A stretch of DNA of 64,000 bases from Oscillospiraceae bacterium (GTDB lineage Bacteria; Bacillota; Clostridia; Oscillospirales; CAG-272): positions 14,196 to 78,195 of the forward strand of contig SVRK01000001.1 in the NCBI GenBank assembly GCA_015064855.1. The letters are read 5' to 3'. Each line of letters starts with the position of its first letter. The stretch's first letter is position 1. Positions 2,417-44,303 of this stretch are shown here, piece by piece. Under the pieces are notes generated by a model. It worked only from the letters and a program-made list of their open reading frames with translations. It searched no databases and was not told where the DNA came from. Both the position numbers and the translations under genes were made by a program.

Positions 2417-2426
2417 GGAGGTTTTT

Positions 2427-2846: not shown

Positions 2847-2894
2847 ATGAAGGCTGCCTCTGTGCCCATTTATGCTATAGGAGATAACGAATGA
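2847..2894 (+). CDS. Candidate 15-codon upstream ORF (MKAASVPIYAIGDNE) coupled to the DUF262 gene
   Basis: AGGAGG at 2834-2839 lies 7 nt before the ATG at 2847. The TGA stop (2892-2894) overlaps the ATG of the next gene (2891-2893). There is no homology evidence. Confidence 0.25.
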   Translation: MKAASVPIYAIGDNE

Positions 2895-4603: not shown

Positions 4604-4605
4604 TA

Positions 4606-6849
4606 ATGAGCACTGCATTGCATACTTTTATGGATATCTTTACTGCTGATTTTGCAATCGATGAAGAAACTGTTGTTCAGCTTCGCAAAATTGTCATACC
4701 GATCATTCAGCGTGACTATGCGCAAGGGCGAACCGACTCGGACGTTCAGAGGGTTCGCAAACGTTTTCTTAATTCATTGCACAAGGCAATAACTGAAAGC
4801 AATATCACGCTTGACTTCGTGTACGGTGACATCGACAAAGATGGAGTAATGACTCCTCTTGATGGTCAGCAACGTCTTACAACGCTATTCCTTTTGCATT
4901 ATTATGCAGCAAAGAAAGAAGGCGTCGCAAAGGAAGACTATTCTTTCTTGATGAATTTCAGCTATGAAACGCGGTATAGCGCAAGAGATTTCTGCGAATA
5001 TCTGGTTGATCACCACGAACCAACATTCACCTGTGCTCTTTCTGAAGAAATTAAGGATCAGGCTTGGTTTCCTTTGGAATGGAAAAAGGATCCTACGATC
5101 AGTTCAATGCTCGTGATGCTTGATGCAATTGCAGATGTATTCAAAGATACGGATGGCATTTGGGAGAGATTAAAGGATGGCGCAATCTCGTTCTATTTCC
5201 TCCCCATCAAGGATATGGGGCTTACCGATGAGCTGTATATCAAGATGAACTCTCGTGGAAAGCCTTTAACTCAGTTTGAACACTTTAAGGCCGAACTTGA
5301 GCACGGACTCCGTGAAATCGATGAGAGCATATCAAAGCGTATTATGCGTAAGATCGATATTGATTGGACGGATATGCTTTGGCATTATAGAGGAACTGAT
5401 AACGTTATCGATGATGAATTTCTCAGATATTTCCGCTTTGTTTGTGATATTATTTGTTATCAAAGCGGTGGCACAACGCAAGGCAAGAGCAATGATGAAT
5501 TCGACCTCCAGAGAGAATATTTTTCAAAGGATACTGAGAATGTGGAGAACAACATCCTCAAACTCGAGAGTTTCTTTGATTGTTGGTGTAACCTTGGCGG
5601 CAAAACACCTACCGAGTTCATTTCTCAGTTCATTTCGTATGATCACGAGCCCGGCAAGATTAAAATCGAAAAAAGGTACGCCCTTGATATATTCGAGGAT
5701 TGTATGAGAACCTATGCAGACGTATCCGGAAACGGAAACAGAAGCTTCCCGTTGAATAGAATTATCCTCTTGTTCGCCATTGTAACCTATCTGCAGAACA
5801 AGGACACTGTAACCGAGGATGAGTTTGCACGTCGCTTGAGGATTGTTAATAACCTCATACAGAATTCCGAAGACGAGATCAGTGATAGTGAGCACAGAAC
5901 CAGTGGTAACAGAATGCCCGCAATTCTTAAGCAGGTTGAGATTTTGATACTTACAGGTACCATTGATACAAGCATCGAAAAATCTTTGAATACCTTCCAG
6001 CTTCAAGAGGAAGTTGAGAAAATAGATTGGGTAATTGCAAATCCTCAGTTCGCCGAGACACTGTACGAGCTTGAAGACCATGAGCTGCTCCAGGGCCAAA
6101 TTGCTATAATTGGATTGGAACATCCAGAGTATTTCCCGCGCTTTGCTGATTTGTTTAAGTGCAAACGAGATCTTATCGATTGTGCTATGATGAGTTTTGG
6201 CAATTACGCGCAGCAAGAAAAGGGCTGGAGACATCAGCTTGGTTCAAGTAACACCAATGCAAAACCGTGGAGAACACTATTCCATAAGAGTTCTAACAAG
6301 GGATTTGACGTTACCAAAGCCATTCTTGCACAGATTCTTGATGTATCAAGCCCTATTACAGATGATTTTCTTCGCGCTTGCGCCGATAAGTACGTAGCAG
6401 ACTGCGAGGTAGCTTCCACATTTGATATCAGATACTACTACATCAAGTATTCTTTGTTCCGCCCTGGTTATTACGGCAAGTACACGTGGGAAAGTCTCCA
6501 GGACAAACCTTACGATCTCGCTGTAATGATTACCGAAACGAAGTGGTCTGAAAATACATACCAACCGTTCCTTAAGGCGGTGGATGATAAGCGTATCTCT
6601 CGCGAGCATTGTGGTCAGAGAATTATTTTCGATGACAGATATCTCAAGTGCGAAAACAATGCTTACGTTGTACGTCTTACAGCAAATGACGCAGAGATAT
6701 ACAGACTTTTAATTTCCCAAAATGAGTCTGGAGTAGACGTTGAAGACCGTATCATAAAGCTTAGAGCAGTATATCAGGATATTTTGTCGCAGCAGTTAGC
6801 TCCGATTCCCGTAGTTTCCGATGATGAATCGGAGGACGGAAATGAGTGA
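4606..6849 (+). CDS. Second DUF262 (ParB-like NTPase/nuclease fold) protein with a large uncharacterised C-terminal region
   Basis: Motifs IPIIQRDYAQGR, PLDGQQRLTTLFLLHYY and YIKMNSRGKPLTQFEHFKAEL. It starts 2 nt after the previous stop. I recognised no DUF1524 motif. Confidence 0.7.
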   Translation: MSTALHTFMDIFTADFAIDEETVVQLRKIVIPIIQRDYAQGRTDSDVQRVRKRFLNSLHKAITESNITLDFVYGDIDKDGVMTPLDGQQRLTTLFLLHYYAAKKEGVAKEDYSFLMNFSYETRYSARDFCEYLVDHHEPTFTCALSEEIKDQAWFPLEWKKDPTISSMLVMLDAIADVFKDTDGIWERLKDGAISFYFLPIKDMGLTDELYIKMNSRGKPLTQFEHFKAELEHGLREIDESISKRIMRKIDIDWTDMLWHYRGTDNVIDDEFLRYFRFVCDIICYQSGGTTQGKSNDEFDLQREYFSKDTENVENNILKLESFFDCWCNLGGKTPTEFISQFISYDHEPGKIKIEKRYALDIFEDCMRTYADVSGNGNRSFPLNRIILLFAIVTYLQNKDTVTEDEFARRLRIVNNLIQNSEDEISDSEHRTSGNRMPAILKQVEILILTGTIDTSIEKSLNTFQLQEEVEKIDWVIANPQFAETLYELEDHELLQGQIAIIGLEHPEYFPRFADLFKCKRDLIDCAMMSFGNYAQQEKGWRHQLGSSNTNAKPWRTLFHKSSNKGFDVTKAILAQILDVSSPITDDFLRACADKYVADCEVASTFDIRYYYIKYSLFRPGYYGKYTWESLQDKPYDLAVMITETKWSENTYQPFLKAVDDKRISREHCGQRIIFDDRYLKCENNAYVVRLTANDAEIYRLLISQNESGVDVEDRIIKLRAVYQDILSQQLAPIPVVSDDESEDGNE

Positions 6850-11920: not shown

Positions 11921-13792
11921 ATGAGCTTAGCAATCAACAACTTATTTAACTTTGGTAGGAGCCTCCCTGCGCCTTTTGATTCTCTTGGAAGCAAGAAGGT
12001 CAAGGTTACGTCTATGTATGGCGAAGGCACCGAATCAACCCTCTGCGCAACCGTTATCAAGGCGATTCACGCAATCTGTCATTGTATGGACGGTAGCGGA
12101 GACGGCGCGGTAGGTGTTCTCGACAAGAAGACGGTTGCCGAATACAAATCCTCGGCAGGACCGAATCAGTATCATCTCGTAGTATACGACAGCACCAATG
12201 GACAGGTACTCGCAAGCGTATATGACAAGGATACGGAGGTAATGGAAACCTATACCGCAAACCCATCCGCAAGAGACGGTTCAGCCATTATGATGGCACT
12301 CTTTCCCGTCCTTATGAACGACAAGGAATTCAGCGATAAATTCGACGAGTATTTCAAGGAATACAGCGCGGGATATCCTGATATGAATCACGCAAAAGAG
12401 TGCATGGCATATATGTGTGACAACGCATACCGCCGTGTTAAAAACGAAACCATTCCTCAGCATATCAAGGTCGAGATTGAAAGATCCGGCAATCTGATGC
12501 GTATTTCCCCTTCGCATATTGACTCCGGAACGTTTACACCAAAGGATGTCATTGCGGGAGAGTTTTCAATCTTTGCCAGTGTCGGAGCCGCTACCGTTAT
12601 TGGAAGCGCTTCAGTCATTGTTGAGCACTCGGATTTCGAAGGACAGTATGTGCTTCAGCCGAGAACCTTCAATCCAGTAGAACAGTCCCTTATCCCCAAG
12701 CTTCCTTCTTGGTATATCATTCCGCAGGAGGTGGTGGATATTTGCAAACACGCTAAGGCAACCACAGGCAAGCCCACACAAATGCGCAACTTCCTTCTGA
12801 GAGGTCCCGCAGGCACGGGTAAGACAATGGGTGCTAAAGCGATTGCAGCCGGACTTGGTTTGCCTTATATGAAGTATACCTGCTCGGCGGGAACAGAGAT
12901 CTTCGATTTCATCGGTCAGGTCTTTCCCAACACAGACGGATTCTCTTCAAGTAATCCTCAGATTGCAAGCGAACGCGAAATGCTCAAGGCAATGGGTGGA
13001 ATCAATTATGCAAACGTAGCTAAGCTTATGTCCCTTCCTGATCTTGATGATATGGATTATGATCCTGCAGGTGTTTATCACCGCCTTACGGGAATCGAGA
13101 AGCCGACAGCATCCTCCCAGGATTGTATGGCGGTCGTTCTTGATATTGTAACCGCAAAGGTGCAGGAACTCTCGAAGAGCGACGAAAGCGCTACGGAAAA
13201 AGGACAGTCGTTTAGATACGTAGAAACCGATTTCATCAATGCACTCCGCAATGGTTTCGTTGTTGAAATTCAGGAACCCACCACTATCGTTCAGCCGGGT
13301 GTTATGGTTGGCCTTAACTCCCTCCTTGAACAGGATGGCTCAATCACGCTCCCTACCGGAGAGATCATTAAGCGTCATCCCGATGCTGTTGTCGTTGTAA
13401 CTACTAACGTCAGCTACGAGGGGTGCCGAGGAATGAACCAGTCTATTATCGACAGAATGAGTCTGGTACGTGACGTAGAGCTTCCCGAACCCGAGGTGAT
13501 GGTACAGAGAGCGATGAGCGTTACCGGAGCTACCGATGAGCTGATGGTTTCCGATATGGTAAAGGTCGTAAACGATATGGCTGATTACTGCAGAAAGAAC
13601 AGCATCACCGACGGTTCTGTTGGTATGCGTAGTTTAATCGACTGGATTGTAAGTACAGAGATCACGGGAGACGTTTATTCCTCTGCTTTGCAAACTATTG
13701 TTAGCAAAGCAACGGCTGATGAGGATGACCGTGAGGCTCTTATTGCTACGGTCCTTGAGCCGATCTTTGCAAGAGGTCGCAAAAAGAAATAA
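11921..13792 (+). CDS. MoxR/CbbQ-like AAA+ ATPase with a roughly 270-aa unknown N-terminal region
   Basis: Walker A is FLLRGPAGTGKTMGAKAIA, Walker B-like is GFVVEIQEPT, and AVVVVTTN is present. It is paired with a downstream VWA protein. Confidence 0.75.
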   Translation: MSLAINNLFNFGRSLPAPFDSLGSKKVKVTSMYGEGTESTLCATVIKAIHAICHCMDGSGDGAVGVLDKKTVAEYKSSAGPNQYHLVVYDSTNGQVLASVYDKDTEVMETYTANPSARDGSAIMMALFPVLMNDKEFSDKFDEYFKEYSAGYPDMNHAKECMAYMCDNAYRRVKNETIPQHIKVEIERSGNLMRISPSHIDSGTFTPKDVIAGEFSIFASVGAATVIGSASVIVEHSDFEGQYVLQPRTFNPVEQSLIPKLPSWYIIPQEVVDICKHAKATTGKPTQMRNFLLRGPAGTGKTMGAKAIAAGLGLPYMKYTCSAGTEIFDFIGQVFPNTDGFSSSNPQIASEREMLKAMGGINYANVAKLMSLPDLDDMDYDPAGVYHRLTGIEKPTASSQDCMAVVLDIVTAKVQELSKSDESATEKGQSFRYVETDFINALRNGFVVEIQEPTTIVQPGVMVGLNSLLEQDGSITLPTGEIIKRHPDAVVVVTTNVSYEGCRGMNQSIIDRMSLVRDVELPEPEVMVQRAMSVTGATDELMVSDMVKVVNDMADYCRKNSITDGSVGMRSLIDWIVSTEITGDVYSSALQTIVSKATADEDDREALIATVLEPIFARGRKKK

Positions 13793-13819
13793 ATAATCAA
13801 GAAGGAGGTTGTACCCTAT

Positions 13820-16096
13820 ATGGCAAGGGTGAATCACAAATTAGTTAAGCAGCGTCTAAACGAAAAACGCAGCAAAATAACCGACCGACAGTTCTTTTCT
13901 TCAAGGCTTCTTGCAGGCCATTTTGAGGATATGGCGGCGGCGCAGACAAGACGGTATAAGTATAACCGTCGCATTCACGTGCAGCTTTTTTGGAAGCCAA
14001 AGGAAGATTTTGTGGCCGCTACAAACAACGAGTACATCCGAATCAACTCCGGTAACAAGATGGTAACGACCGTAAAAGGACGTGAAAATCGGTACTGGAT
14101 CGTATGCGGACTGTTTGCTCATGAAGCCGGGCACGTACTTTATACCGACTTCCTTGCGCAGCAAAGCTACTGCAACTACTTCTTGAGAAAGAAGTGGTAT
14201 CCTTTGGCACCTCCCCTCACCACCCTCGATCAGAAGATAGCTGAGCGTGAGATCTGGGATTACGTTGATGACGATCCCAGAAACGCTGAGGTCCTTCTGC
14301 AGGTAGCAATGACGATTAACAACGTAATTGAGGACGGTTACATTGAGAATCGTGTTCTTAACGCATTCCCGGGTTCGCTCGGGTATGCGCTTGAGACCTT
14401 GCGCGAAAAGCACTTCTGTGATATGCCGACAGTAACGGAGCTTATCGAGCAGGAAAACGATGGCGAATGTCATATTTTCCAGAGCATTATGCAGCTTATG
14501 CTTTCTTACGCAAAGTTCGGTGAAATCAAGTATGGTGAAGAACCTCTCAGCGACGAGAGAATTCAGACCGTATTCAGCCTGATTGGAGATATCGATTCGG
14601 CTCTATTCAATCGTTCTGGCAAGGAAAGGTTAATGGCGACCAATGCGGTTCTTATCAAATGCTGGAAGTACGTTAAGGATTTCTGCGAATATAGCAAACA
14701 AAAGCAGGATGAAGCTGCCGCAAACGGTTCCACAATGAGTATTTCCGAGAAGCTTGCCGAACTGTTCGGTAAGATGATTGGTGGCTCTGCAGGTGCTTCC
14801 GGAAGCGGAAGCCCTGTTCCCGAAGCATCCGGTGTTCCTATTCCTTCCGCAACAGCAGCAAATCGTTCCAAAACCAAGAATGATGCAGGCGAAAAAGCAG
14901 ACGAAGAGGAATCTGGATCCGGCGCAGCAGGGGCAGAAACACCCGAAGAGGCACCTTCAGGCGAGTCTGGAGAAAAATCTTCAAATTCATCTGAGTCTGG
15001 AGAGGAATCAGGCGGACAGGATGGTGACGAAGGCGATGGTGGCAAGGATGATGTAACATCGTCTGAAGGCAAACGAATTCCGTATCACCAGACCGAGAGT
15101 GTTGAAACCAGCGGCAGCGGAAAAATGGAGCGAAACGATACCTATGAGCGCGAAATGTACGACAAAGCCGCAAGTGATATCGAGAGAGTTCTTGAGAGGA
15201 TGGCAGAAAAAGCCGCTTGTCAGGAGCTTGAAAACGAAAGACTTCGCGAGCTGAACGAGGTTGCGCAGAACATATCTTATGGCGATGTACATCAAGGGAT
15301 AGACATCTGTGTGAATCGAATCAACGACGTAGATACCGAGCTAATAGATCAGTACAATTACATTGCAGCTCCTCTTCTGACCATTTCCAGACAGTTGCAG
15401 CGCAGTCTTGTGCGGCAGCTTAAGGAAAGCAGACGCGGAGGAAAGCAAACCGGTCTTATGATGGGTAGACGCTTGGATTCACATGCGTTGCATAGAAACG
15501 ATGGGAAGATCTTTTATAAGAACGCCCTTCCGAACGAAATCCCCGAGCTGTGTGTTGGTCTTCTGATTGACGAATCCGGTTCTATGGGGTGTAGCGACAG
15601 ATGCACCTATGCGAGAGCTGCAGCAATCATTCTTTATGACTTCTGCAGGAGCCTTGAGATACCTGTTATGGTATACGGCCATTCAACGTCAGGCGGTGAG
15701 GTCGAGCTGTTTTCTTATGCAGAATTCGAAAGCTACGACAATGATGACAAATATCGCATGATGGACATTGGAGCCAGAGGCAGTAACCGTGACGGTGCCG
15801 CACTTCGATTCGTTGCAGAACAAGTATCAAAGCGCCCAGAGGAGATAAAGCTTCTCATATTGATTTCTGACGGTCAGCCCGCGCATTACGGTTATTCCGG
15901 TACTGCTGCAGAGGAAGATTTGAGAGGAATCAGAAAAGAATATATGAAAAAAGGAATCCTCTTTATCGCGGCTGCTATTGGAGACGATAAGCAGAATATC
16001 GAGCGAATTTATGAGGACTCGTTCCTTGACATAACAGATCTCAATCAGTTGCCCGTAAAGCTTACCGCAGTTGTTAAGCGTCATATTCGGGTATAA
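13820..16096 (+). CDS. CobT-like protein: N-terminal HExxH (zincin-like) region, acidic disordered linker, C-terminal VWA domain
   Basis: HEAGH is encoded at 14120-14134. The Ser/Gly/Glu-rich linker is encoded at about 14790-15070. The MIDAS-like motif is GLLIDESGSMG, and LLILISDGQPA is also present. Confidence 0.75.
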   Translation: MARVNHKLVKQRLNEKRSKITDRQFFSSRLLAGHFEDMAAAQTRRYKYNRRIHVQLFWKPKEDFVAATNNEYIRINSGNKMVTTVKGRENRYWIVCGLFAHEAGHVLYTDFLAQQSYCNYFLRKKWYPLAPPLTTLDQKIAEREIWDYVDDDPRNAEVLLQVAMTINNVIEDGYIENRVLNAFPGSLGYALETLREKHFCDMPTVTELIEQENDGECHIFQSIMQLMLSYAKFGEIKYGEEPLSDERIQTVFSLIGDIDSALFNRSGKERLMATNAVLIKCWKYVKDFCEYSKQKQDEAAANGSTMSISEKLAELFGKMIGGSAGASGSGSPVPEASGVPIPSATAANRSKTKNDAGEKADEEESGSGAAGAETPEEAPSGESGEKSSNSSESGEESGGQDGDEGDGGKDDVTSSEGKRIPYHQTESVETSGSGKMERNDTYEREMYDKAASDIERVLERMAEKAACQELENERLRELNEVAQNISYGDVHQGIDICVNRINDVDTELIDQYNYIAAPLLTISRQLQRSLVRQLKESRRGGKQTGLMMGRRLDSHALHRNDGKIFYKNALPNEIPELCVGLLIDESGSMGCSDRCTYARAAAIILYDFCRSLEIPVMVYGHSTSGGEVELFSYAEFESYDNDDKYRMMDIGARGSNRDGAALRFVAEQVSKRPEEIKLLILISDGQPAHYGYSGTAAEEDLRGIRKEYMKKGILFIAAAIGDDKQNIERIYEDSFLDITDLNQLPVKLTAVVKRHIRV

Positions 16097-36397: not shown

Positions 36398-36618
36398 TAC
36401 AATTCACCCCCTATATATTTTACAATACACCTCGCAAAATTGGAATGAATTGCATTCCGCCTCTTTTGTGTATCAGAGTACATATAACTATGAAAGGGAT
36501 TGCATTTTATGACTAAAACCATTGAAAAACGTACTAATTTACAATCGAAAATGAATTTCATTGGTTCGTATGGGGGAACTATGCCCAGTTAAGTGTATTG
36601 CAATTCACCTCGCATTTT
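36397..36618. promoter_or_regulatory. Repeated TTRCAATWCACC motifs in the divergent regulatory region
   Basis: TTACAATTCACC at 36397-36408, TTACAATACACCTCGCA at 36420-36436 and TTGCAATTCACCTCGCA at 36598-36614. A partial copy, TTACAATCG, is at 36539-36547. Confidence 0.5.
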
Positions 36619-36631
36619 AACATAATATTCT

Positions 36632-36670
36632 GCGCCTATTTGCGTTCGCACGCGAATGGGCGCTTTTCTT
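36632..36670 (+). terminator. Strong leader hairpin with U-tract upstream of the sigma-like genes
   Basis: A 13-bp stem, GCGCCTATTTGCG (36632-36644) with CGCGAATGGGCGC (36651-36663), is followed by TTTTCTT. Confidence 0.55.
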
Positions 36671-36781: not shown

Positions 36782-37165
36782 ATGAATAACGAAAAAACCA
36801 GAGCTGAATTTACCAACTGGCTCGACACCCTTGCTTACAGAACGAAGCTGAACTACATAAGAGCAGAAAAGAAGCATCAAGTCAGCTTTTCCATTGATGA
36901 ATTGCCCGAGGACAGACTAGAGTCCGAGGAATTCCACGTTGCCTTTGAGTTTTCTGTTGAAGGCGAATTTAACTTCGAAGCCGAGTGGCTTGAGAAGGCG
37001 TTTGCAAAGCTTTCGGATACCTGCAAAGAGATCCTCAAGCTTATGTACATCGAAGGCAAAACAACCCAGGAAGTCGCCGTGCAAATGAAGTGTAGCGCGA
37101 AATATGTGTACAAGCAGCGGGCTAAGGCGTTTGATCTTATAAGAAAAGAAGGAGAAAAGAAATGA
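36782..37165 (+). CDS. Sigma-70 region-4-like protein (Tn916 orf7-like)
   Basis: LSDTCKEILKLMYIEGKTTQEVAVQMKCSAKYVYKQRAKAFDLIRKE. Confidence 0.7.
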   Translation: MNNEKTRAEFTNWLDTLAYRTKLNYIRAEKKHQVSFSIDELPEDRLESEEFHVAFEFSVEGEFNFEAEWLEKAFAKLSDTCKEILKLMYIEGKTTQEVAVQMKCSAKYVYKQRAKAFDLIRKEGEKK

Positions 37166-37362
37166 AAAAGGAATGCTTGAATTTCGAAGAGCTTATTATT
37201 GCCGCACAGAACGGCAGCGACGAGGCAATGACTGAGATCCTGGAGATGTATATGCCTCTGATCGACAAGCATAGCCGAATTGACGGTGTTTTGGACGAGG
37301 ATCTTCGCCAGATCATTTTGATGAAGATTATCAAAAATATCGGAAAATTTAAGGTTAAATAA
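37162..37362 (+). CDS. Sigma-70 region-2-like small protein (Tn916 orf8-like)
   Basis: ELIIAAQNGSDEAMTEILEMYMPLIDKHS. It has an ATGA overlap with the upstream gene. Confidence 0.65.
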   Translation: MKKECLNFEELIIAAQNGSDEAMTEILEMYMPLIDKHSRIDGVLDEDLRQIILMKIIKNIGKFKVK

Positions 37363-37380
37363 TTTTTTCAAAAAAATCGT

Positions 37381-37762
37381 GGGGATGGTAGAATTTTCGA
37401 TAACCTGCTGTGTGATTACATGTGAAGGCATCCCCAAAGCCTAACAAATTACAATTGAATAGTCTGATCCGGTACGTTCCGAAGCGCCGAGCGGCTATCC
37501 GTCTGTCGGCAACAGAACCAAGAGCACTGATGTGTGGGTGGCACCTGCACAACGCGATGACGCGCTGAGGGTATAATGGTACTTCCGTAAAAACGCGGCC
37601 CGGCCACAAGGAAGGCGGGGAGATGAGATTTCTATGGACCTGTTCGCCACAGGCACCGGGGAGGACGTTAAACTTAGGAAATCGATTTATGCTGTCATAG
37701 GTCGATAAGTTATCGAATAAATATTTGGTAACAGGTTAAAAATATAATCACACAGCAGGAGG
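37381..37762 (+). other. ORF-free structured segment bracketed by a perfect 15-nt inverted repeat (candidate large RNA leader or invertible DNA switch)
   Basis: CCTGCTGTGTGATTA (37404-37418) is the exact reverse complement of TAATCACACAGCAGG (37745-37759). The right arm overlaps the SD AGGAGG (37757-37762). A local helix is GGGGATG (37381-37387) with CATCCCC (37429-37435). The segment is more GC-rich than its flanks. Confidence 0.4.
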
Positions 37763-37768
37763 TTGTAT

Positions 37769-38023
37769 ATGGAAAAGAATACAATCATTACCGACGTGCG
37801 AAGTATAGATAGGACAAAGTTGCGCGACATAAACAGCGTGGTGATTGATCCCAAGCTCCCGAAGGCAGAGAAAATTCAGAGCTTCGTAAGTCAAATCGGC
37901 AATCCATACTGCTATATGGATGGCGATGTGGTAGTCAGCATTAGCTATGCAGATACCGAAGTCAGTCTGGAGGACAGACTGAAGTCCTATTTCACTGGAA
38001 TGGGAAATAATACTAACGGTTAA
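37769..38023 (+). CDS. Small hypothetical protein preceding the recombinases (DUF6870-like from memory; unverified)
   Basis: The ATG at 37769 lies 6 nt after AGGAGG. The listed 37763 start is a TTG. Confidence 0.5.
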   Translation: MEKNTIITDVRSIDRTKLRDINSVVIDPKLPKAEKIQSFVSQIGNPYCYMDGDVVVSISYADTEVSLEDRLKSYFTGMGNNTNG

Positions 38024-38046: not shown

Positions 38047-38075
38047 TTGACTATTCAAGTCAAATGTGATATAAT
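38047..38075 (+). promoter_or_regulatory. Near-consensus sigma-A-type promoter for the recombinase operon
   Basis: TTGACT (38047-38052), 17 nt, TGaTATAAT (38067-38075). Confidence 0.6.
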
Positions 38076-38163: not shown

Positions 38164-39795
38164 ATGCATCAAGTGCCTTGCAACGTCACATACCGTGCCT
38201 TAGCATATTACCGCTTGTCAAAGGAAGACAAAGGCAAGACGGTTAGTGACAGTATAGAAAACCAGCGGATGCTTATTCAGGAATACGTGAGCAAGCACGA
38301 TGAGATCGAGCTGGTTGGTGAATTTTACGATGACGGTTATTCCGGAACCAACTATAGACGTCCCGGATTCCAGGATCTTCTTGAGAAAGTCGAACAAGGA
38401 GAGATAGATTGTATCATCGTAAAGGATCTCTCGCGCCTTGGGCGTGAATATATTGAGACCGGAAGGTTCATTGAAGAACGCTTTCCGGCTATGGGAATTC
38501 GATTCATTGCTGTAACGGACGATTACGACAGTAACGCACCCAAGCAGTCTGATGATATCTTGATTCCTGTAAAAAACTTAATGAATGAAACCTATTGCCG
38601 TGATTTGTCCAACAAACTGCGTCGTCAGTTTATGGTACAAAGAAGCAATGGTGAGTGCCTTGCAGCCTTCGCAAGCTACGGATATCGTAAATCACCGGAA
38701 GATAAGCATAAGCTTATTATCGATGAGATTGCGGCCGAAGTTGTGCGGGGCATTTTTTATTCCAAATTACAAGGTTACAGCCAACAGGATATTGCTTCAA
38801 TGCTTACCTCTCAGGGCATTATGTGTCCCGCAGAATACAAGAAGCAAAACGGCATGAAATACAAGTCTGGCTTTAGTTCGACCGAAACCGGGCAATGGAG
38901 CCACATGGCTGTTACGAGAATCCTCAAAAACCGTCTTTACATTGGTGAGCTCATACAAGGCGTAAGAGGCAAGCCGAATTTTAAGGTAAAAGAGGTCAAA
39001 AAGCGTAAGCCAGAAGAATGGATTGTAGTTCCAAATAATCACGAGCCGATCATAGATCAAAAAGTCTTTGATATAGTACAAAGAATGCTTGAACGTGATA
39101 CGAGACGTTCGCCCGAGCAGGAGCTTGTTTTTCCTCTATCTGGAATGATTTTCTGCCCGGATTGCGGCAGAAATATTCGCATTCGCAGCGTTACAAGATA
39201 TAAGAGAAAATTCTACTATTATACCTGCTCAACTTATAAAAACGGCAGAGGTTGTACGAGCCACAGTATAGAAAAGTCAAAGCTCGAGGATATCGTATAT
39301 CGAGCAATAATGGTTCAAATCAATACAGTTGTTGACATCAATTCCATTTTGGATACGATTAAGAACTGCGACTTGCGTGTAGTTCGTATGAAAAAGCTGA
39401 AGGCTCAAATATCGCAGAAGGAAGCCGAACTGGAAAAATACAAGGAGTTCAAAAACAGACTTCTGGAGGCACTCAAAGATCAGCTCATCGAACGCGATGA
39501 ATATATTCAGATGCGTGACAAATACAGGGCGCAGGAAGAAGAGTGCCTTGAAGCAATCAAGGTGCTTCAGGATAAGGCTATTGAGCTTGAGTCTGAGGCG
39601 AATTTGGATAGCTCTTGGGTGGAGCAATATGCAAAGTTCCAGAACGTCCAAACGCTCACTCGTGAAATGGTTGTGTCTTTGATTGACAAAGTTATTGTAC
39701 ACGAAGGCAACGTCATAGAAATAGTCTTCAATTACAGAGACGAAATTGCCTATGTCGAAGAGCTTATCTCCGAAAGCAAAAAGGAGGTGAGCTAA
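38164..39795 (+). CDS. Large serine recombinase 1
   Basis: Motifs ALAYYRLSKEDKGK, FYDDGYSGTNYRRPGF and IIVKDLSRLGREY. It has a zinc-ribbon CPDCGRNIRIRS...YYTCSTYKNGRGC and a C-terminal coiled coil. Confidence 0.9.
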   Translation: MHQVPCNVTYRALAYYRLSKEDKGKTVSDSIENQRMLIQEYVSKHDEIELVGEFYDDGYSGTNYRRPGFQDLLEKVEQGEIDCIIVKDLSRLGREYIETGRFIEERFPAMGIRFIAVTDDYDSNAPKQSDDILIPVKNLMNETYCRDLSNKLRRQFMVQRSNGECLAAFASYGYRKSPEDKHKLIIDEIAAEVVRGIFYSKLQGYSQQDIASMLTSQGIMCPAEYKKQNGMKYKSGFSSTETGQWSHMAVTRILKNRLYIGELIQGVRGKPNFKVKEVKKRKPEEWIVVPNNHEPIIDQKVFDIVQRMLERDTRRSPEQELVFPLSGMIFCPDCGRNIRIRSVTRYKRKFYYYTCSTYKNGRGCTSHSIEKSKLEDIVYRAIMVQINTVVDINSILDTIKNCDLRVVRMKKLKAQISQKEAELEKYKEFKNRLLEALKDQLIERDEYIQMRDKYRAQEEECLEAIKVLQDKAIELESEANLDSSWVEQYAKFQNVQTLTREMVVSLIDKVIVHEGNVIEIVFNYRDEIAYVEELISESKKEVS

Positions 39796-41507
39796 TGGCA
39801 CGTAAAAGTAGGTTTGTAGATGTAAGCACTATTGAAGCCATTGAAACAGTGGTTTGGAAAACGGCATTTTATTTGCGTTTGTCAGATGAAGATGGCGAAA
39901 ACGTAGAACAAAACTCTTTGGGCAACCAACGCAAAATCTGTCAGGCTTACTTCAATAAGCTTGAAGACGTTGAGCTTGTCAGAGTATTCAGCGACAACGG
40001 TTATACCGGAATGAATTATGATCGTCCCGACTTCAACGCACTTTACGATGCAGTGATGAATGGTGAGATCAACTGTATTATCGTCAAGGATGTGTCTCGC
40101 TTTGGAAGGCACTATATAATGACCAGTGAATTCTTGCAAAGACTCTTTCCGAGTATGGGAGTTCGGTTTATTTCCGTAAATGACGATTATGACAGCCTTA
40201 ATCCTAAATCGGATGTGGAAGGTCTCTTACTGCCTTTCAAGATGATCGTAAACGATTCCTACGTTAAGGATATTGCCAAAAAGATACGTTCGAGCATTAC
40301 TTCAAAAATGAATGCCGGAGAGTATTTGCCATCAGCAAGTAGCATTCTGTACGGATACATTCGTAATCCTGAAATGAATACACTTGATATTGATGCAGAA
40401 GCGGCTCCGGTTGTTGTTCGGATATTTGAAATGAGAGCTGATGGCATCTCTTTCAACCAAATTGCAGATACTCTTAACAAAGAAGGAGTTCCATCCCCAG
40501 GAAGACTTCGTTATATGCGGGGAGTAACTCTCCATCCGAGATACGCAACTTGTCAGTGGTCGCGCTCGACGATCAGAAAATTCGTATCAGAGCCAACGTA
40601 CCTTGGCCAAAGAATTCACGGAAAAATCAAGAGAGATAAGCTGGGTGCCAAGAAGACAAAGCGTGATAGGTCGGAATGGCAGATTGTTGAGAATAGCCAT
40701 CCTGCAATCATTTCGCAGGAACTGTATGATAGAGTTCAGTTCGTTAACGAAGCCGAGCTTGAAAAACAGTCTCACTATTTCAGAAGAGCTCCGGTCACAG
40801 GTTATCGTGAAATTTTCCGCGATAAGCTATTCTGCGGGGATTGCGGATCAAGAATGATCTCTATCCGTTTTAATCACAGAATCAGTGACAATAAGCCATC
40901 TGAGATAAGGTACCAATGCAATGAGTTCCTTTACTCTGGTAGAACAAGATGCTTTAATCACTACACGAGAGAAGACGTTCTTGTTATGACGGTAAAGAAC
41001 GTTATTAACGGTCAGATTAAGGTAGCCGCGAGAATACAAACGGCACTTACGGCTTACAAAAAATCGAAGCGTGGCAATCCGATTGCAGATCAATTACAGG
41101 CAGTAAGATTGCGGCGCAAACAGCTTGAGGTTAAAATCGAAAGGTTAATCGAGGATCTAACTGAGGGCATTATCAACCACGAGGAGTATGAATATGCTAA
41201 AAGAAAATACGCTGACGAATACGATCTCGTTTTGATTGAGGAACAAGAAATCGAAAAACGCTTTAAGTCACAGCAGGAATCAGTTGACAGAGCTGAATTA
41301 TGGGTTGAATCCCTGAAAGCTTATAGTATGGTTCCAAAGCTTGACAAAGCAATCGTCGATCTGCTCATTGAAAAAATCATAGTGTTTCCGGATAATACTT
41401 TTCATATTGTCTTGAACTTTAAGGATCCTTACAAAGATTTTGCGTTCCTCTCAGACTATTTGAAGACAGGAGGAAGATCTAATGGCAGATCTAAAAAGGC
41501 GATTTGA
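39795..41507 (+). CDS. Large serine recombinase 2
   Basis: Motifs AFYLRLSDEDGEN, FSDNGYTGMNYDRPDF, IIVKDVSRFGRHY and CGDCGSRMISIR...YQCNEFLYSGRTRC. The ATG overlaps the previous TAA. Confidence 0.9.
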   Translation: MARKSRFVDVSTIEAIETVVWKTAFYLRLSDEDGENVEQNSLGNQRKICQAYFNKLEDVELVRVFSDNGYTGMNYDRPDFNALYDAVMNGEINCIIVKDVSRFGRHYIMTSEFLQRLFPSMGVRFISVNDDYDSLNPKSDVEGLLLPFKMIVNDSYVKDIAKKIRSSITSKMNAGEYLPSASSILYGYIRNPEMNTLDIDAEAAPVVVRIFEMRADGISFNQIADTLNKEGVPSPGRLRYMRGVTLHPRYATCQWSRSTIRKFVSEPTYLGQRIHGKIKRDKLGAKKTKRDRSEWQIVENSHPAIISQELYDRVQFVNEAELEKQSHYFRRAPVTGYREIFRDKLFCGDCGSRMISIRFNHRISDNKPSEIRYQCNEFLYSGRTRCFNHYTREDVLVMTVKNVINGQIKVAARIQTALTAYKKSKRGNPIADQLQAVRLRRKQLEVKIERLIEDLTEGIINHEEYEYAKRKYADEYDLVLIEEQEIEKRFKSQQESVDRAELWVESLKAYSMVPKLDKAIVDLLIEKIIVFPDNTFHIVLNFKDPYKDFAFLSDYLKTGGRSNGRSKKAI

Positions 41508-43074
41508 TTATTTAAGACTATCTTTGGAAGACGGAGATGTGGCAAGCGGCAACTCAAACGAGAGCCAGAGCATTGAGTCCCAAAGAAAATGTTGTCGTCA
41601 GTTTCGTGCAGAGTATCCAGACTTAATGGATGGCTTTGAAGAAATTGTTGATGACGGTTACTCCGGTACACACTTTGATAGGCCGGGAATAAAACGGCTC
41701 CTCAGACTTGTGGAGTTGGATATGGTGGAAGTTATTGTTGTTAGGGATCTTTCTCGTTTTGCAAGAAACTTCCTTGAGGCTGGATACTATATGGAGTTTG
41801 TGTTTCCCGCCCATGGAGTTCGTTTCATATCTATTAACGATGGATATGACAGCGCTTCGTATACTGATTCCAGCGCTGCGCTTCATATTGCGATCAAGAA
41901 CCTCGTCAATCAGATGTATAGCCGCGATATTTCGAAAAAGATCAAGAGTGCGGTCGATCTGAAAAAAATGAGAGGCGAATTTGTATATGGCACGGCCCCA
42001 TACGGATATAAAAAAGGCGCAAAGAAGAACACCATCGAGGTGGATCCAATTGCTGCCCCAACAGTATTCAGACTATTCAGTATGGCTTGTAACGGCAAGA
42101 CCATTACGGAAATTGCGAGAACTTTTAACGAGGAGAAGATTCCAACACCATCTATGCACCTTTCTGCAGTACGAAGCAAGAAGGTAAAGGTTTATCCAAT
42201 ATGGAGCTTCGAATCCGTTAGAAACATTCTGACAAATCGTATCTATACTGGAGATACTGTTCCGTTTAAGTCACACGTTGTACGTATCGGCAGTGACAAT
42301 GTGAAGTATATTCCCGAGGAAGAAAGGATTATCATACCCAATACCCACGAGGCAATTATCACTCGAGAGATGTACGAAAAAGCACAGCTTGTGATTAAGA
42401 GCACAAAGAAATCTCCGTCCAGTGGCATAAGAAGTCCATTGGCCACTTACCTTGTATGCAGTTGTTGCGGCAATCGTCTACAAAAAGGTAAACCAACAAA
42501 CAAAACATTCCTGTGTGCTACAGCGCGTTATGCTCCAGATAAAGAGTGTAAGCAGATTCGATGTGATGACCGTAAGATGCAGGAAATACTGCTCAAGGCA
42601 GTCCGCCAACAGTGTATGATGATGGATACTCGCATCAAGCATATCAAGGCTACAGCAAAAACTGTCAGAAGTGAAATTGAGATGCTGATGGCCGATATTC
42701 GTCTACAGCGTAGACTTGCGGAAAATGCTAAAGCTTCTAAGATGCGACTCTACGAGGATTATGTTGAGGGAGTAATAAACAAAGAAGAATACTCCACAAA
42801 GAAAGTAGAGCTTGCAGAGCAGGAACAGACTGCACTCAAGCAGCTTGAGCTCTTAGAAGCAAACCTTGCCGTGCTCAATTCTAATGTTGACGACAAAGAC
42901 GAGGTGGTAGAGAGTCAAGCCTTGATCGATAAGTATCTTGAGATCACCGAACTTACAGAGCCGTTAATGAGAGAACTCTTCAAAAAAATAATTGTTTATC
43001 CGGACGGCTCCATAAATATCGTTTGGAATTTCAGGGATATGACGGATGGCTCAAAAACAACCACTGTAATCTAA
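41482..43074 (+). CDS. Large serine recombinase 3
   Basis: Motifs FDYLRLSLEDGDV, IVDDGYSGTHFDRPGI, IVVRDLSRFARNF and CSCCGNRLQKG...FLCATARYAPDKEC. It overlaps recombinase 2 by 26 nt. Confidence 0.9.
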   Translation: MADLKRRFDYLRLSLEDGDVASGNSNESQSIESQRKCCRQFRAEYPDLMDGFEEIVDDGYSGTHFDRPGIKRLLRLVELDMVEVIVVRDLSRFARNFLEAGYYMEFVFPAHGVRFISINDGYDSASYTDSSAALHIAIKNLVNQMYSRDISKKIKSAVDLKKMRGEFVYGTAPYGYKKGAKKNTIEVDPIAAPTVFRLFSMACNGKTITEIARTFNEEKIPTPSMHLSAVRSKKVKVYPIWSFESVRNILTNRIYTGDTVPFKSHVVRIGSDNVKYIPEEERIIIPNTHEAIITREMYEKAQLVIKSTKKSPSSGIRSPLATYLVCSCCGNRLQKGKPTNKTFLCATARYAPDKECKQIRCDDRKMQEILLKAVRQQCMMMDTRIKHIKATAKTVRSEIEMLMADIRLQRRLAENAKASKMRLYEDYVEGVINKEEYSTKKVELAEQEQTALKQLELLEANLAVLNSNVDDKDEVVESQALIDKYLEITELTEPLMRELFKKIIVYPDGSINIVWNFRDMTDGSKTTTVI

Positions 43075-43081: not shown

Positions 43082-43122
43082 ACCCCCGTTTTCGAACTGC
43101 CTTCAAGTTCGAGAACGGGGGT
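43082..43122 (+). terminator. Long hairpin terminator after the recombinase operon
   Basis: ACCCCCGTTTTCGAACT (43082-43098) pairs with AGTTCGAGAACGGGGGT (43106-43122) with one wobble pair. The U-tract is weak. Confidence 0.6.
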
Positions 43123-43319: not shown

Positions 43320-44303
43320 TTATTCGAGTTTTACTGTGTTGTCCCTATTATAACACACTCCCATTCCTTGCACAATTCCACCTGATTTATTTATAAGCTC
43401 AGTGTCAGTGACTTTTATTTTAAAATTTTTTGCACTACTGTTAGATATATCTATACTTGAAATTTGCACCTTGTATTTTTTTGGTGTTCTGCCGTCAAGT
43501 GTCGATAGAATATATGCATCTCCCTCTTTTATGTCCTCTTTAGATGCTACCTTTAGTAGCTCGCAGGATTGAGGGATAGAATTTGCCGAAAGATATCCAA
43601 AAACACCACAAGTGCAGTTTTTAGTTAATGTGCCGATTTTTTTTGATAAAAACGTTCCACGAAGCTCACCAGCTGAACCAACCTCACCTTTTATAACACC
43701 GTTGATATTTACATTCATAACAAGACCTTTTCCAACAGGAATTACTTTACCATTACTCGAATCACAAATTGCGTGTCCAAGACCACCAAACGAGAGGTCT
43801 TTTGGATTGATATAGGTTATAGTTCCTATGCCTGTTGTAGAATCCTTAACCCAAATACCGGTTTTATATTTTCCGTCCTCACTTGAATATTTCGGTTTTA
43901 CAGTGAATTTGATTTCTTTATTATTTCTAATTGCGATTATTTCTATAGGGTTTGCACCGGACTTATCAACCTCTTTAATAAAGGTATCTATTGAATTTAC
44001 TAAAACTCCGTTGATTCTTATAATTATGTCTCCCTCACGAAGTCCCGCCAGATATGCACTTGACACATTGTTTCCTCTAGTAGAAGAAAATTTTACTATT
44101 GTTAAGCCCGGAGAGGAAATTTTCACTCCGAACGGCATGCCTCCTGGGTATAATTCAATTTCAGAAATATCTTTATTTTCATTTGCATAAGAGGTTATAC
44201 TAAATAACGGTACAAAAAACAAAATAGCAATAAACGCAAAGGAAATTAATGATATATTTAATCTTGATTTTTGCATTTTTCTTGTCCTTTCATTTTTGTA
44301 CAT
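43320..44303 (-). pseudogene. spoIVB: spoIVB (S55 signalling protease), 5-prime two-thirds only, interrupted by the element
   Basis: It has a membrane anchor, a PDZ-like region GDIIIRINGVLVNSIDTFIKEV and a His region SFGGLGHAICD. It ends ...NKSGGIVQGM and then 13 unrelated codons, where the family has GM-SGSP with the catalytic Ser. The start is uncertain (ATG at 44303 or 44276; the listed 44342 is TTG). Confidence 0.8.

What the first reader, a model, noticed from the sequence alone, without database searches (positions are those of the whole stretch)
37381..37762. ORF-free 380-bp segment closed by a perfect 15-nt inverted repeat, directly upstream of the recombinase operon
There is no plausible plus-strand ORF between the stop of the orf8-like gene (37362) and the SD of the 84-aa gene (AGGAGG, 37757-37762). 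CCTGCTGTGTGATTA (37404-37418) is the exact reverse complement of TAATCACACAGCAGG (37745-37759), and the right arm overlaps the SD by 3 nt. Further local helices lie inside: GGGGATG 37381-37387 with CATCCCC 37429-37435, and GCCGA 37486-37490 with TCGGC 37506-37510. The segment is visibly more GC-rich than its flanks. I see two readings. (i) It is a large structured RNA leader whose closing helix gates translation of the small gene and the recombinases. (ii) It is a DNA inversion switch. Segments of a few hundred bp bracketed by inverted repeats next to recombinase genes are how phase-variable switches are built, and this element carries more serine recombinases than a simple integrase function needs. 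There is also a weak hint: the right-arm context TATAATCACAC (37743-37753) resembles TATAACACAC (43349-43358) at the putative element/host junction. That would fit the arms being recombinase half-sites, but a 10-nt match in AT-rich DNA may be chance. I could not match the segment to T-box, cobalamin-riboswitch or hammerhead signatures by eye.
Basis: seen in the sequence. Interest (0 to 1): 0.65.

Follow-up and report, generated by a model that had tools for sequence, protein, structure and literature searches.

The report
Antiterminator RNA leader of a mobile element
The gene-free 400-bp stretch is most likely a folded RNA leader related to canT of the transposon Tn916, which lets RNA polymerase ignore stop signals; the 15-base inverted repeat is an extra RNA stem specific to this lineage, with no sign of DNA flipping.

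Summary
37404-37418 is the exact reverse complement of 37745-37759, and it is the only such repeat in the 64-kb window. The segment is ORF-free and GC-rich.

The repeat is not the main feature. The segment holds a conserved structured core of about 190 nt (37469-37659, + strand) with 11 helices and strong covariation. Its 3' part is the only Rfam hit in the window: the function-unknown pemK motif (RF02913, 37573-37637, 64 bits).

The same motif, and the whole core, lie in the same slot in Tn916 and Tn1549: after the orf7-like sigma gene and the orf8-like HTH_16 gene, before the recombination genes. In Tn916 this slot is canT, an experimentally shown cis-acting, orientation-specific, processive antiterminator RNA. 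Both published canT loss-of-function alleles map onto the pemK motif.

The 15-nt repeat lies outside the conserved core and occurs only in this lineage. Its left arm changes only in ways that keep + strand RNA pairing. About 18 contigs that span both arms and the interior show one orientation. One recombinant lineage keeps the right arm without the left.

Verdict: a new member of a known kind, a canT/pemK-type antiterminator leader. It has a lineage-specific closing stem that probably masks the Shine-Dalgarno of the DUF6870 gene. The inversion switch is not supported.

The parts
36782..37165 (+). orf7-like gene (sigma-70 region 4 protein, 127 aa)
   Evidence: Pfam Sigma70_r4_2/r4. 29% identical to Tn916 Orf7, E 2e-9.
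37162..37362 (+). orf8-like gene (HTH_16, 66 aa)
   Evidence: Pfam PF12645, E 3.6e-17. Tn916 Orf8 and the Tn1549 homologue belong to the same family. No pairwise BLASTP match to Tn916 Orf8.
37363..37768 (+). Whole ORF-free leader, positional equivalent of the 452-nt Tn916 canT region
   Evidence: No + strand ORF. GC-rich. The MFE fold has z = -3.6 and uses the inverted repeat as its closing helix.
37365..37394 (+). Promoter-like site (TTCAAA/TTTTCA, then TG-n-TAGAAT). If used, transcripts would start just before the left arm.
   Evidence: Consensus scan only, 9 of 12 matches. A TAGATT-like hexamer recurs at this place in relatives, seen by eye. Not tested.
37404..37418 (+). Left arm of the 15-nt inverted repeat; 5' strand of the lineage-specific outer RNA helix
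   Evidence: Variants carry 37402 A>T, 37403 A>T, 37405 C>T, 37415 A>G and 37419 C>T. All of these keep or extend + strand pairing.
37426..37442 (+). Small hairpin with a C-rich loop (AGGC...GCCU)
   Evidence: Seen by eye in the alignment, where the stem varies as AGCAU/AUGCU, GGCA/UGCC and AGGC/GCCU. Not scored formally.
37448..37466 (+). Conserved 5' box (family consensus CUUUGAAAAnUGAAUAGUC; degenerate here)
   Evidence: Alignment A3. Also present in Tn916 and Tn1549.
37469..37659 (+). Conserved structured core: closing helix 37469-37473/37655-37659 plus 10 internal helices
   Evidence: RNAalifold predicts 53 pairs, 23 with compensatory changes. 94.8% of cells are paired against 36-46% in slid controls, and 0 of 500 shuffles reach the observed values. 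Model R1 hits Tn916 canT and Tn1549 over its full length.
37471..37480 (+). Box A, GGUACGUUCC (near-invariant, probably single-stranded)
   Evidence: A3 conservation. Its predicted pairing with box B shows no covariation (helix 2).
37570..37586 (+). Box B, GGUAUAAUGGUACUUCC (the invariant 5' box of the pemK motif). 37573-37575 (AUA) corresponds to the Tn916 canT(S3) loss-of-function substitution.
37573..37637 (+). Rfam pemK motif (RF02913)
   Evidence: 64 bits against a gathering score of 34.8, E 1e-10. It is the only Rfam hit in the 64-kb window.
37660..37744 (+). Lineage-specific 3' spacer with two local hairpins
   Evidence: Present only in the window/L001 lineage in the alignment. Hairpins appear in the MFE fold.
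37745..37759 (+). Right arm of the inverted repeat; 3' strand of the outer helix. Overlaps a TATAAT-like hexamer (37743-37748) and the first 3 nt of the SD.
   Evidence: Invariant in all close variants, including the L096/L099 recombinants that lack the left arm.
37757..37762 (+). Shine-Dalgarno AGGAGG of the DUF6870 gene
   Evidence: Read from the sequence. P(unpaired) of 37757-37759 is about 0 when the left arm is present and 0.5-0.97 when it is absent.
37769..38023 (+). 84-aa DUF6870 gene, in the position that xis occupies in Tn916
   Evidence: Pfam PF21757, E 2.8e-28. Function unknown.
38047..38075 (+). Strong sigma-70-like promoter site ahead of the first recombinase
   Evidence: TTGACT-17-TATAAT with TG, 11 of 12 matches.
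38164..43074 (+). Three large serine recombinase genes (543, 570 and 530 aa)
   Evidence: Pfam Resolvase + Recombinase (all three); Zn_ribbon_recom in the first two only.
43082..43122 (+). Long-stem (17-bp) terminator-like hairpin right after the last recombinase. Candidate target of, or barrier to, antitermination.
   Evidence: Terminator scan; sequence.

Best explanation
The segment is the DNA for a long structured 5'-leader or intercistronic RNA of the canT type. This is the cis-acting processive antiterminator of Tn916-family integrative conjugative elements. Its conserved core includes the Rfam pemK motif.

**Proposed mechanism.**
1. Transcription comes from upstream: through the orf7-like and orf8-like genes, and possibly from a promoter-like site at 37365-37394.
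2. It copies the segment on the + strand.
3. The nascent RNA folds into the multi-helix core (37469-37659), which has two near-invariant boxes, GGUACGUUCC and GGUAUAAUGGUACUUCC.
4. By homology with canT, this RNA stays with the transcribing RNA polymerase and makes it resistant to terminators. Transcripts can then run through DUF6870, the three recombinase genes and the hairpin at 43082-43122. After excision they could run across the circular junction.

**The 15-19 bp outer helix.** It pairs 37404-37418 with 37745-37759. It is an RNA feature added in this lineage. It encloses the whole antiterminator domain and pairs with the first 3-5 bases of the DUF6870 SD. It probably lowers translation of DUF6870 from full-length read-through transcripts.

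**Shown here.**
- The sequence features.
- The covariation-supported fold and its strand.
- Homology and synteny with Tn916 and Tn1549.
- The mapping of the canT loss-of-function alleles onto the pemK motif.

**Inferred.** Antitermination activity in this particular element, and SD gating by the outer helix.
For: 1. Rfam pemK (RF02913) matches 37573-37637 at 64 bits. It is the only family hit in the window.
2. A core of about 190 nt around it is conserved upstream of DUF6870 in 13 or more loci. It has 53 predicted pairs, 23 of them with compensatory changes. 94.8% of cells are paired against 36-46% in slid controls, and 0 of 500 shuffles reach the observed values. G-U 55 versus A-C 7 places the fold on the + strand.
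3. Synteny matches the Tn916 regulatory module: Cys-rich KTR, HTH on the minus strand, sigma region 4, HTH_16, then the segment, then recombination genes.
4. The Tn916 copy on pCF10 has pemK at L081 2823-2923 (55 bits), inside the orf8-xis interval. Tn1549 has it at L091 3941-4038 (57.8 bits), in the same slot.
5. Model R1, built only from the window's family, hits Tn916 canT (L081 2653-2956, 36.9 bits, E about 1e-10) and Tn1549 (40 bits) over its full length. In the combined 21-sequence alignment, 41 of 53 pairs show compensatory changes and 94.7% of cells are paired, against 35-44% in slid controls. The closing helix and the last hairpin take ten or more different sequences.
6. canT is experimentally a cis-acting, orientation-specific, processive antiterminator lying between orf8 and xis (PMC11658703). 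canT(S3), an ATA>TGC change at nt 283 after the orf8 stop, falls on L081 2823-2825, the first three bases of the pemK hit. canT(delta162), nt 229-390, corresponds to L081 2769-2930 and removes the whole hit.
7. Outer helix: five left-arm substitutions in close variants all keep or extend + strand pairing, two as G.U pairs and three as new pairs. The right arm is invariant. Duplex energies are -24.8 to -28.5 kcal/mol. The modelled SD bases 37757-37759 are paired only when the left arm is present.
8. An architectural precedent exists. The antiterminator RNA conAn2 of pLS20 lies in a 383-bp intergenic region whose 238-bp centre is flanked by 20-bp inverted repeats (PMC8191782).
Against: - There are no transcript or reporter data for this element.
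- No T1-like terminator at the element's far end could be located. The left end was not found in the window, and no conjugation genes were recognised in 1-37 kb.
- In Tn916, a 400-bp sub-fragment retained activity despite the S3 change. The canT authors found no simple link between structure and function. The pemK box is therefore not strictly essential in every context.
- The outer helix is absent from canT, from Tn1549 and from most relatives. It is also missing in the L096/L099 recombinants. In conAn2 the analogous repeats were dispensable for antitermination. Its role is therefore uncertain.
- Only about 24 of the 80 DUF6870 loci carry the core.
- The alignment used was fitted to the model, which inflates pair counts somewhat.
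Confidence: 0.8

Rival explanations
1. DNA inversion switch. One of the neighbouring serine recombinases flips 37419-37744 between the 15-bp arms. This would turn an orientation-specific element on or off.
For: A perfect 15-bp inverted repeat brackets 326 bp next to recombinase genes, and it is unique in the window. canT function depends on orientation, so flipping would have a phenotype.
Against: - Every contig that spans both arms and the interior (about 18) has the same orientation.
- No inverted junction was found in metagenome or viral contigs. Power was low: only one native junction turned up in the metagenome set and none in the viral set.
- The arms diverge asymmetrically, with G.U on the + strand and up to 2 of 15 DNA mismatches.
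- L096 and L099 keep the right arm but have no left arm.
- Relatives with the same core lack the repeat.
- The recombinases are large integrase-type enzymes.
- The proposed half-site resemblance at 43349 is at chance level.
Confidence: 0.03
2. Primarily a translational or attenuating riboregulator. The leader senses a ligand, protein or temperature, and the closing helix opens or closes the DUF6870 SD. There is no antitermination function.
For: The helix overlaps the SD and is kept by pairing-preserving substitutions. Rfam files pemK as cis-regulatory. The fold is large and conserved.
Against: - The homologous Tn916 RNA has demonstrated antitermination activity without any other element genes.
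- The helix is lineage-specific while the core is widespread.
- No known riboswitch family matches.
Confidence: 0.08
3. Read-through insulator of the EGeRS1 type. On pLS20 these are GC-rich, repeat-rich regions of 420-750 bp lying directly upstream of the ribosome-binding sites of establishment operons. They block expression driven from upstream promoters.
For: Size, GC excess, multiple inverted repeats and position immediately upstream of an RBS are similar to the description in PMC8708921. SD masking could explain low reporter output.
Against: - Sequence and structure homology here is to canT, which promotes read-through.
- Homology to EGeRS1 could not be tested because pLS20 and pBS72 are not in the collections.
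- The EGeRS1 mechanism is itself unknown.
Confidence: 0.05
4. Single-stranded DNA element active during transfer, either a single-strand origin or an Frpo-like ssDNA promoter.
For: It sits on a mobile element, is a large hairpin-rich GC-rich region, and contains an internal TATAAT (37572-37577). Weinberg et al. note that such motifs could act as ssDNA.
Against: - canT works from a chromosomal double-stranded reporter driven by Pspank, and only in one orientation.
- G-U far outnumbers A-C, which puts the fold on the sense strand. That strand cannot be the template for the downstream genes.
- No relaxase or oriT was recognised in the window.
Confidence: 0.03

Closest known systems
canT, the processive antiterminator RNA of Tn916 (Wirachman & Grossman 2024, PMC11658703)
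   Same: - Same slot: after the orf7-like sigma gene and the orf8-like HTH_16 gene, before the recombination genes, on the same strand.
- Similar length: 406 nt here against 452 nt.
- Both contain the Rfam pemK motif.
- The whole-core model R1 aligns over its full length with covarying helices.
- A spurious antisense ORF of about 84 codons overlaps both.
   Different: - The downstream genes are DUF6870 plus three large serine recombinases, not xis and a tyrosine integrase.
- The internal variable domain differs, and the first pemK hairpin lacks the insertion of about 38 nt seen in Tn916.
- The window lineage has a 15-19 bp outer helix reaching the SD, which Tn916 lacks.
- Activity has not been tested here.
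Rfam pemK RNA motif, RF02913 (from Weinberg et al. 2017, PMC5737381; filed as cis-regulatory, function unknown)
   Same: Full-length match to the 61-position model at 64 bits: the 5' box AUAAUGRUACUUC plus three hairpins.
   Different: - The Rfam model covers only 65 of about 190 conserved, covarying nucleotides.
- In this family the motif is enclosed by further helices.
- The papers searched do not link pemK to antitermination.
conAn2 RNA of the pLS20 conAn antitermination system (Miguel-Arribas et al. 2021, PMC8191782)
   Same: It is a large intergenic antiterminator RNA (383 bp) on a Gram-positive conjugative element. It has a GC-rich part, and a long central region bracketed by terminal inverted repeats (20 bp flanking 238 bp).
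   Different: - conAn2 works with a protein partner, ConAn1, for processivity. No such partner was identified here.
- Its inverted repeats were dispensable for antitermination.
- Sequence and structure homology was not tested because pLS20 is not in the collections.
Tn1549 (vanB element) orf8-xis intergenic region
   Same: The gene order is sigma-70, HTH_16, pemK motif (57.8 bits), then xis and int. The R1 core matches at 40 bits.
   Different: It uses a tyrosine recombinase module. It has no outer helix equivalent. To my knowledge it has not been characterised experimentally.
Invertible promoter or 'inverton' switches (fimS, hin and similar)
   Same: An inverted repeat brackets a few hundred bp next to recombinase genes.
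   Different: No second orientation was observed. The arms are not conserved and are not symmetric. The arm variation fits RNA pairing rather than protein-binding half-sites.

Membership tests
Rfam pemK motif (RF02913) | Covariance-model score at or above the curated gathering score (34.8 bits) over the full model | tested here: met
   64 bits, model positions 1-61 of 61, at 37573-37637 on the + strand.
Rfam pemK motif (RF02913) | Conserved 5' box AUAAUGAUACUUC followed by three hairpins | tested here: met
   The alignment shows both. The hairpins covary in relatives (helices 8-10).
canT-type processive antiterminator RNA (Tn916) | Located between the orf8 (HTH_16) gene and the recombination genes, co-oriented with them | tested here: met
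canT-type processive antiterminator RNA (Tn916) | Sequence and structure homology to the functional 452-nt canT region, including the sites of the loss-of-function alleles | tested here: met
   pemK is present in both. R1 matches L081 2653-2956 over its full length. S3 (L081 2823-2825) and delta162 (2769-2930) fall on the pemK motif. The window equivalent of S3 is 37573-37575.
canT-type processive antiterminator RNA (Tn916) | Cis-acting, orientation-specific, processive read-through of terminators | not testable with these tools
   This needs reporter assays. It is known only for Tn916.
canT-type processive antiterminator RNA (Tn916) | Terminator(s) downstream in the transcription path that must be bypassed, such as T1 near the other end of the element | tested here: inconclusive
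   A 17-bp-stem terminator-like hairpin lies at 43082-43122, after the last recombinase. The left end of the element and any T1 equivalent were not located.
Invertible DNA switch | Inverted repeats flanking the segment | tested here: met
   A 15-nt perfect inverted repeat.
Invertible DNA switch | Both orientations present in natural populations | tested here: not met
   All contigs that span the arms and interior (about 18) are in the native orientation. No inverted junction was found. Assemblies have low power against a minority orientation.
Invertible DNA switch | Arms conserved as matching recombinase sites | tested here: not met
   The left arm varies and the right arm does not, giving G.U-type mismatches. 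The left arm is absent in L096 and L099. Other relatives with the core have no repeat.
conAn (pLS20) bipartite antitermination system | conAn2 RNA homology and an adjacent ConAn1 processivity protein | not tested
   pLS20 and pBS72 are not in the collections. Only the architectural resemblance comes from the paper.
ssDNA promoter (Frpo-like) | The structure forms on the strand that serves as template for the downstream genes | tested here: not met
   G-U 55-76 against A-C 7-13 places the fold on the sense strand.
Known riboswitch, T-box or ribozyme classes | Match to any Rfam family other than pemK | tested here: not met
   Only a sub-threshold match to the related dinG motif (26 bits against a gathering score of 46.9) and a chance snoRNA hit.

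The most novel reading that the evidence does not exclude
The function-unknown Rfam family pemK (RF02913), and probably its look-alike dinG, may be the conserved core of canT-class processive antiterminator RNAs. These would be spread through Tn916/Tn1549-type and serine-recombinase mobile elements of Firmicutes.

The functional unit would be the covarying domain of about 190-260 nt defined here. It consists of a closing helix, two repeated GAUAC(N)UUCC boxes, the three pemK hairpins and a terminal hairpin.

This would give canT the comparative structure model that its discoverers said they lacked. It would also assign a function to an orphan motif.

A rarer and more exotic reading is not excluded. 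In this lineage the 15-bp arms might also allow low-frequency inversion of the orientation-specific antiterminator. I put that at about 0.03.
Probability: 0.6. Interest if true: 0.55.

Novelty: new member of a known kind. Interest (0 to 1): 0.4.

Why it matters
**For the window.** It explains an odd non-coding block as the regulatory RNA of a Tn916-like control module. That module has been coupled to serine recombinases instead of xis and int.

**More generally.** Three things appear not to have been connected in the literature I could search:
- an orphan Rfam motif (pemK);
- the experimentally defined Tn916 antiterminator canT;
- a covariation-supported secondary structure that spans both.

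Together these give testable predictions. Boxes A and B and the closing helix are candidates for the RNA polymerase-interacting module. There is also a search model for finding antitermination control in gut Firmicutes mobile elements that spread resistance genes, including Tn916 with tet(M) and Tn1549 with vanB.

**The outer stem.** The lineage-specific stem over the SD suggests an added layer that separates transcription read-through from translation of the first downstream gene.

Tried and rejected
- **BLASTN of the segment.** Against plasmids and phages it found almost nothing: one 83-nt hit over the pemK part.
- **A strict regex for the pemK box.** It found only 9 of 80 loci and was replaced by nhmmer and covariance-model searches.
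- **RNAduplex z-scores for 5'/3' pairing in relatives.** These were noisy and uninformative (one search timed out). A longest-helix statistic showed a significant long-range helix only in the window/L001 lineage. Helices of about 10 bp at similar positions in L021 and L042/L046 are not above shuffle levels.
- **Inverted-junction scans.** Metagenome: 0 inverted against 1 native. Viral: 0 and 0. Too little power to decide anything.
- **ssDNA promoter or single-strand origin idea.** Considered because of the internal TATAAT and the pLS20 literature. Rejected on strand asymmetry and on the dsDNA reporter data for canT.
Not supported by covariation or by chance statistics.
- **Fetching pLS20 (AB615352) and pBS72 (KX711616).** This was meant to test conAn2 and EGeRS1 against pemK and R1. 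It failed because neither record is in the collections.
- **tblastn with the window's orf8-like protein.** It did not reach Tn916. Tn916 was reached through its Xis sequence, which I recalled from memory and confirmed at 100% identity.
- **Antisense ORF 37355-37609 against Tn916 orf5.** No meaningful similarity.
- **Weinberg 2017 supplement.** The supplement that describes pemK is not held.
Full report
**1. The observation.**

The sequence is as described. CCTGCTGTGTGATTA (37404-37418) is the exact reverse complement of TAATCACACAGCAGG (37745-37759). The repeat finder extends it to 18 nt at 94%. It is the only inverted repeat with a 13-nt or longer exact seed and 1 kb or less spacing in the whole 64-kb window. 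No shuffle out of 100 produced a helix as long.

The right arm overlaps the Shine-Dalgarno (SD) AGGAGG (37757-37762) of an 84-aa gene that starts at 37769. The segment has no credible + strand ORF. Its GC is 0.48-0.57 against 0.33-0.36 at the edges.

Two details need correction:
- The downstream 84-aa gene is a DUF6870 protein. A near-consensus promoter-like site (38047-38075) separates it from the three large serine recombinase genes.
- The suggested 10-nt resemblance to 43349-43358 is at chance level.

**2. What the segment contains.**

An Rfam scan gives one hit in the whole window: the pemK motif (RF02913) at 37573-37637 on the + strand, at 64 bits against a gathering score of 34.8. Rfam files pemK as cis-regulatory. 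The papers I could search attach no mechanism to it.

A scan of one genome per species for DUF6870 relatives returned 80 loci. In 13-15 of them a block matching 37451-37676 lies upstream of DUF6870 at 73-83% identity.

Alignment and RNAalifold give a multi-branched structure of 53 pairs in 11 helices. In window coordinates it spans 37469-37659.
- 23 pairs show compensatory changes.
- 94.8% of cells are paired, against 36-46% when partners are slid by 1-3 columns.
- 0 of 500 column shuffles reach the observed values.
- G-U pairs (55) far outnumber A-C (7), so the fold belongs to the + strand, the sense strand of the downstream genes.

The Rfam motif is therefore only the 3' third of a larger conserved domain. 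One predicted helix pairs ACAUUCC with GGUAUAAUG and shows no covariation. These two near-invariant boxes, which resemble each other (GRUACRUUCC and GRUACUUCC), are more likely single-stranded functional sequences.

**3. The link to a known function.**

The genes upstream of the segment form the Tn916 regulatory module:
- a Cys-rich KTR protein;
- a divergent HTH repressor-like gene;
- an orf7-like sigma region-4 protein, 29% identical to Tn916 Orf7;
- an orf8-like HTH_16 protein, in the same Pfam family as Tn916 Orf8.

In Tn916, the 452-nt interval between orf8 and xis is canT. Wirachman and Grossman (PMC11658703) showed it to be a processive antiterminator. It acts in cis and only in one orientation. 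It works with heterologous promoters and terminators and needs no other element gene.

I fetched a Tn916 copy from pCF10 (L081). It carries a pemK hit at 2823-2923 (55 bits), inside that interval. The vanB element Tn1549 has the same arrangement: sigma, HTH_16, pemK at 57.8 bits, then xis and int.

A covariance model built only from the window's family (R1) matches over its full length:
- Tn916 canT at L081 2653-2956 (36.9 bits, E about 1e-10);
- Tn1549 (40 bits);
- about 24 of the 80 DUF6870 loci.

In the combined 21-sequence alignment, 41 of 53 pairs show compensatory changes. 94.7% of cells pair, against 35-44% for slid controls. The closing helix and the terminal hairpin take ten or more different sequences, including CGAAU/GUUCG in Tn916 and CGGAC/GUCCG in Tn1549. 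This alignment was fitted to the model, so the counts are somewhat generous. The independent MAFFT-based result points the same way.

**4. The published canT mutations fall on the pemK motif.**

The paper's methods place canT(S3), an ATA to TGC change, at nucleotide 283 after the orf8 stop codon. They place canT(delta162) at nucleotides 229-390.

With the orf8 stop at L081 2538-2540:
- S3 is L081 2823-2825, the first three bases of the pemK hit. It lies in the invariant box AUAAUGAUACU.
- delta162 is 2769-2930, which removes the whole hit.

Both alleles cut antitermination to below 5% and conjugation about 100-fold. The window equivalent of S3 is 37573-37575.

One caveat: a 400-bp sub-fragment stayed active despite S3.

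The canT paper does not mention pemK or Rfam. No other paper in the searchable library links them.

**5. The inverted repeat itself.**

The arms lie outside the conserved core. Relatives with the same core, Tn916 and Tn1549 have no comparable long-range helix.

Among close variants from 20-odd metagenome contigs, the right arm is invariant while the left arm varies. The changes are 37402 A>T, 37403 A>T, 37405 C>T, 37415 A>G and 37419 C>T.
- Two convert Watson-Crick pairs to G.U.
- Three create new pairs that extend the helix to 18-19 bp and further into the SD.
- None disrupts pairing.
- Duplex energies are -24.8, -26.8 and -28.5 kcal/mol.

This is the pattern expected for a + strand RNA helix. 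It is not the pattern expected for a pair of recombinase sites, because the DNA arms become non-identical.

In a partition-function model, SD bases 37757-37759 are paired (P unpaired about 0) when the left arm is in the transcript. They are mostly free when it is not.

The helix is not indispensable. L096 and L099 are natural recombinants with an identical 3' half and right arm but a different 5' half that has no matching left arm.

A close architectural precedent exists. The pLS20 antiterminator RNA conAn2 has a 238-bp centre flanked by 20-bp inverted repeats, and mutating them did not affect antitermination.

**6. The inversion hypothesis.**

Every contig that spans both arms and the interior (about 18) has the native orientation. 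An inverted-junction pattern found nothing in JGI metagenome contigs. The native control found only one contig, and viral contigs held neither, so these scans have little power.

Taken with the asymmetric arm divergence and the one-armed recombinants, inversion is unlikely. Assemblies cannot exclude it at low frequency.

**7. Most likely mechanism.**

1. Transcripts enter from the orf7/orf8-like genes. No terminator follows the orf8-like stop. They may also start at a promoter-like site at 37365-37394, which would place the left arm at the very 5' end.
2. These transcripts fold into the canT-like core.
3. By homology, the core modifies the transcribing polymerase so that it reads through terminators. 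The path runs through DUF6870, the recombinase genes and the long-stem hairpin at 43082-43122. After excision it presumably continues across the joined ends.
4. The outer helix encloses the domain and masks part of the DUF6870 SD. This is an added, lineage-specific layer.

Shown here: the sequence features, the fold and its strand, the homology, the synteny and the allele mapping. Inferred: antitermination activity in this element and SD gating.

Rivals and rough probabilities: a translational riboregulator without antitermination 0.08, an EGeRS1-like insulator 0.05, an inversion switch 0.03, an ssDNA element 0.03.

**8. Novelty and score.**

The element in the window is a new member of a known kind: a canT/pemK-type leader attached to a serine-recombinase module. 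The wider by-product appears to be new in the searchable literature and is testable. It has two parts:
- an orphan Rfam motif is the core of an experimentally defined antiterminator;
- a covariation-supported structure of about 190-260 nt spans both.

The finding as posed is largely explained by known biology, so I score interest at 0.4.

Noticed in passing
window 43082-43122: A 17-bp-stem, GC-rich terminator-like hairpin lies 8 nt after the stop of the third recombinase and has a weak U-tail. Long stems have been reported to make terminators resistant to processive antitermination (title of PMC10325885). It could mark either the end of the operon or the barrier that the leader RNA overcomes.
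   Followed up: partly
window 38047-38075: A near-consensus sigma-70 promoter-like site (TTGACT-17-TATAAT with TG) lies between DUF6870 and the first recombinase. The recombinases may therefore be transcribed independently of the leader.
   Followed up: no
window 36598-36663: A promoter-like site is followed immediately by a strong terminator-like hairpin (14-bp stem, then a T-run). It sits in the gap between the divergent HTH gene and the orf7-like gene and looks like an attenuator guarding entry into the orf7/orf8/leader unit.
   Followed up: no
window 37769-38023: The DUF6870 gene occupies the place that xis holds in Tn916: first gene after the antiterminator and directly before the recombinases. 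Judged by position only, it is a candidate recombination directionality factor. Only about 24 of the 80 DUF6870 loci have the canT-like core upstream.
   Followed up: partly
window 37355-37609 (minus strand): An 84-codon antisense ORF overlaps the structured core, just as the discredited 83-codon orf5 overlaps canT in Tn916. The two translations are not similar, so both are probably artefacts of GC-rich structured DNA.
   Followed up: yes
L096 150-640 and L099: These are natural recombinants within the leader. The 3' half, from about window 37600 onward, is near-identical to the window. The 5' half is a different variant of the same core and is preceded by a terminator rather than an orf8-like gene. 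The leader therefore appears to recombine in modules.
   Followed up: partly
L102-L104: A DUF6870 variant at 88% identity (P0002) sits about 100 nt downstream of an unannotated 131-aa gene, with too little upstream space for a full-length leader (only the last ~65 nt of the interior are matched, at 88%; not scanned with R1 or Rfam).
   Followed up: no
L091 3941-4038 (Tn1549 on pMG2200) and 13 other Enterococcus plasmids: pemK-like sequence lies in unannotated intergenic DNA of conjugative vanB plasmids. In the one plasmid examined it sits between the orf8-like gene and xis of Tn1549.
   Followed up: partly
window 1886-6849 and 11921-16096: The left part of the window carries a run of defence-like or toxin-like genes: a colicin-DNase/WHH nuclease, two GmrSD-type endonucleases, and a pair made of an AAA ATPase and a VWA-domain protein. 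No conjugation machinery was recognised in 1-37 kb.
   Followed up: no
L026 110-610 (minus strand): Two tandem cobalamin riboswitch aptamers lie in an unrelated Oscillospiraceae locus.
   Followed up: no
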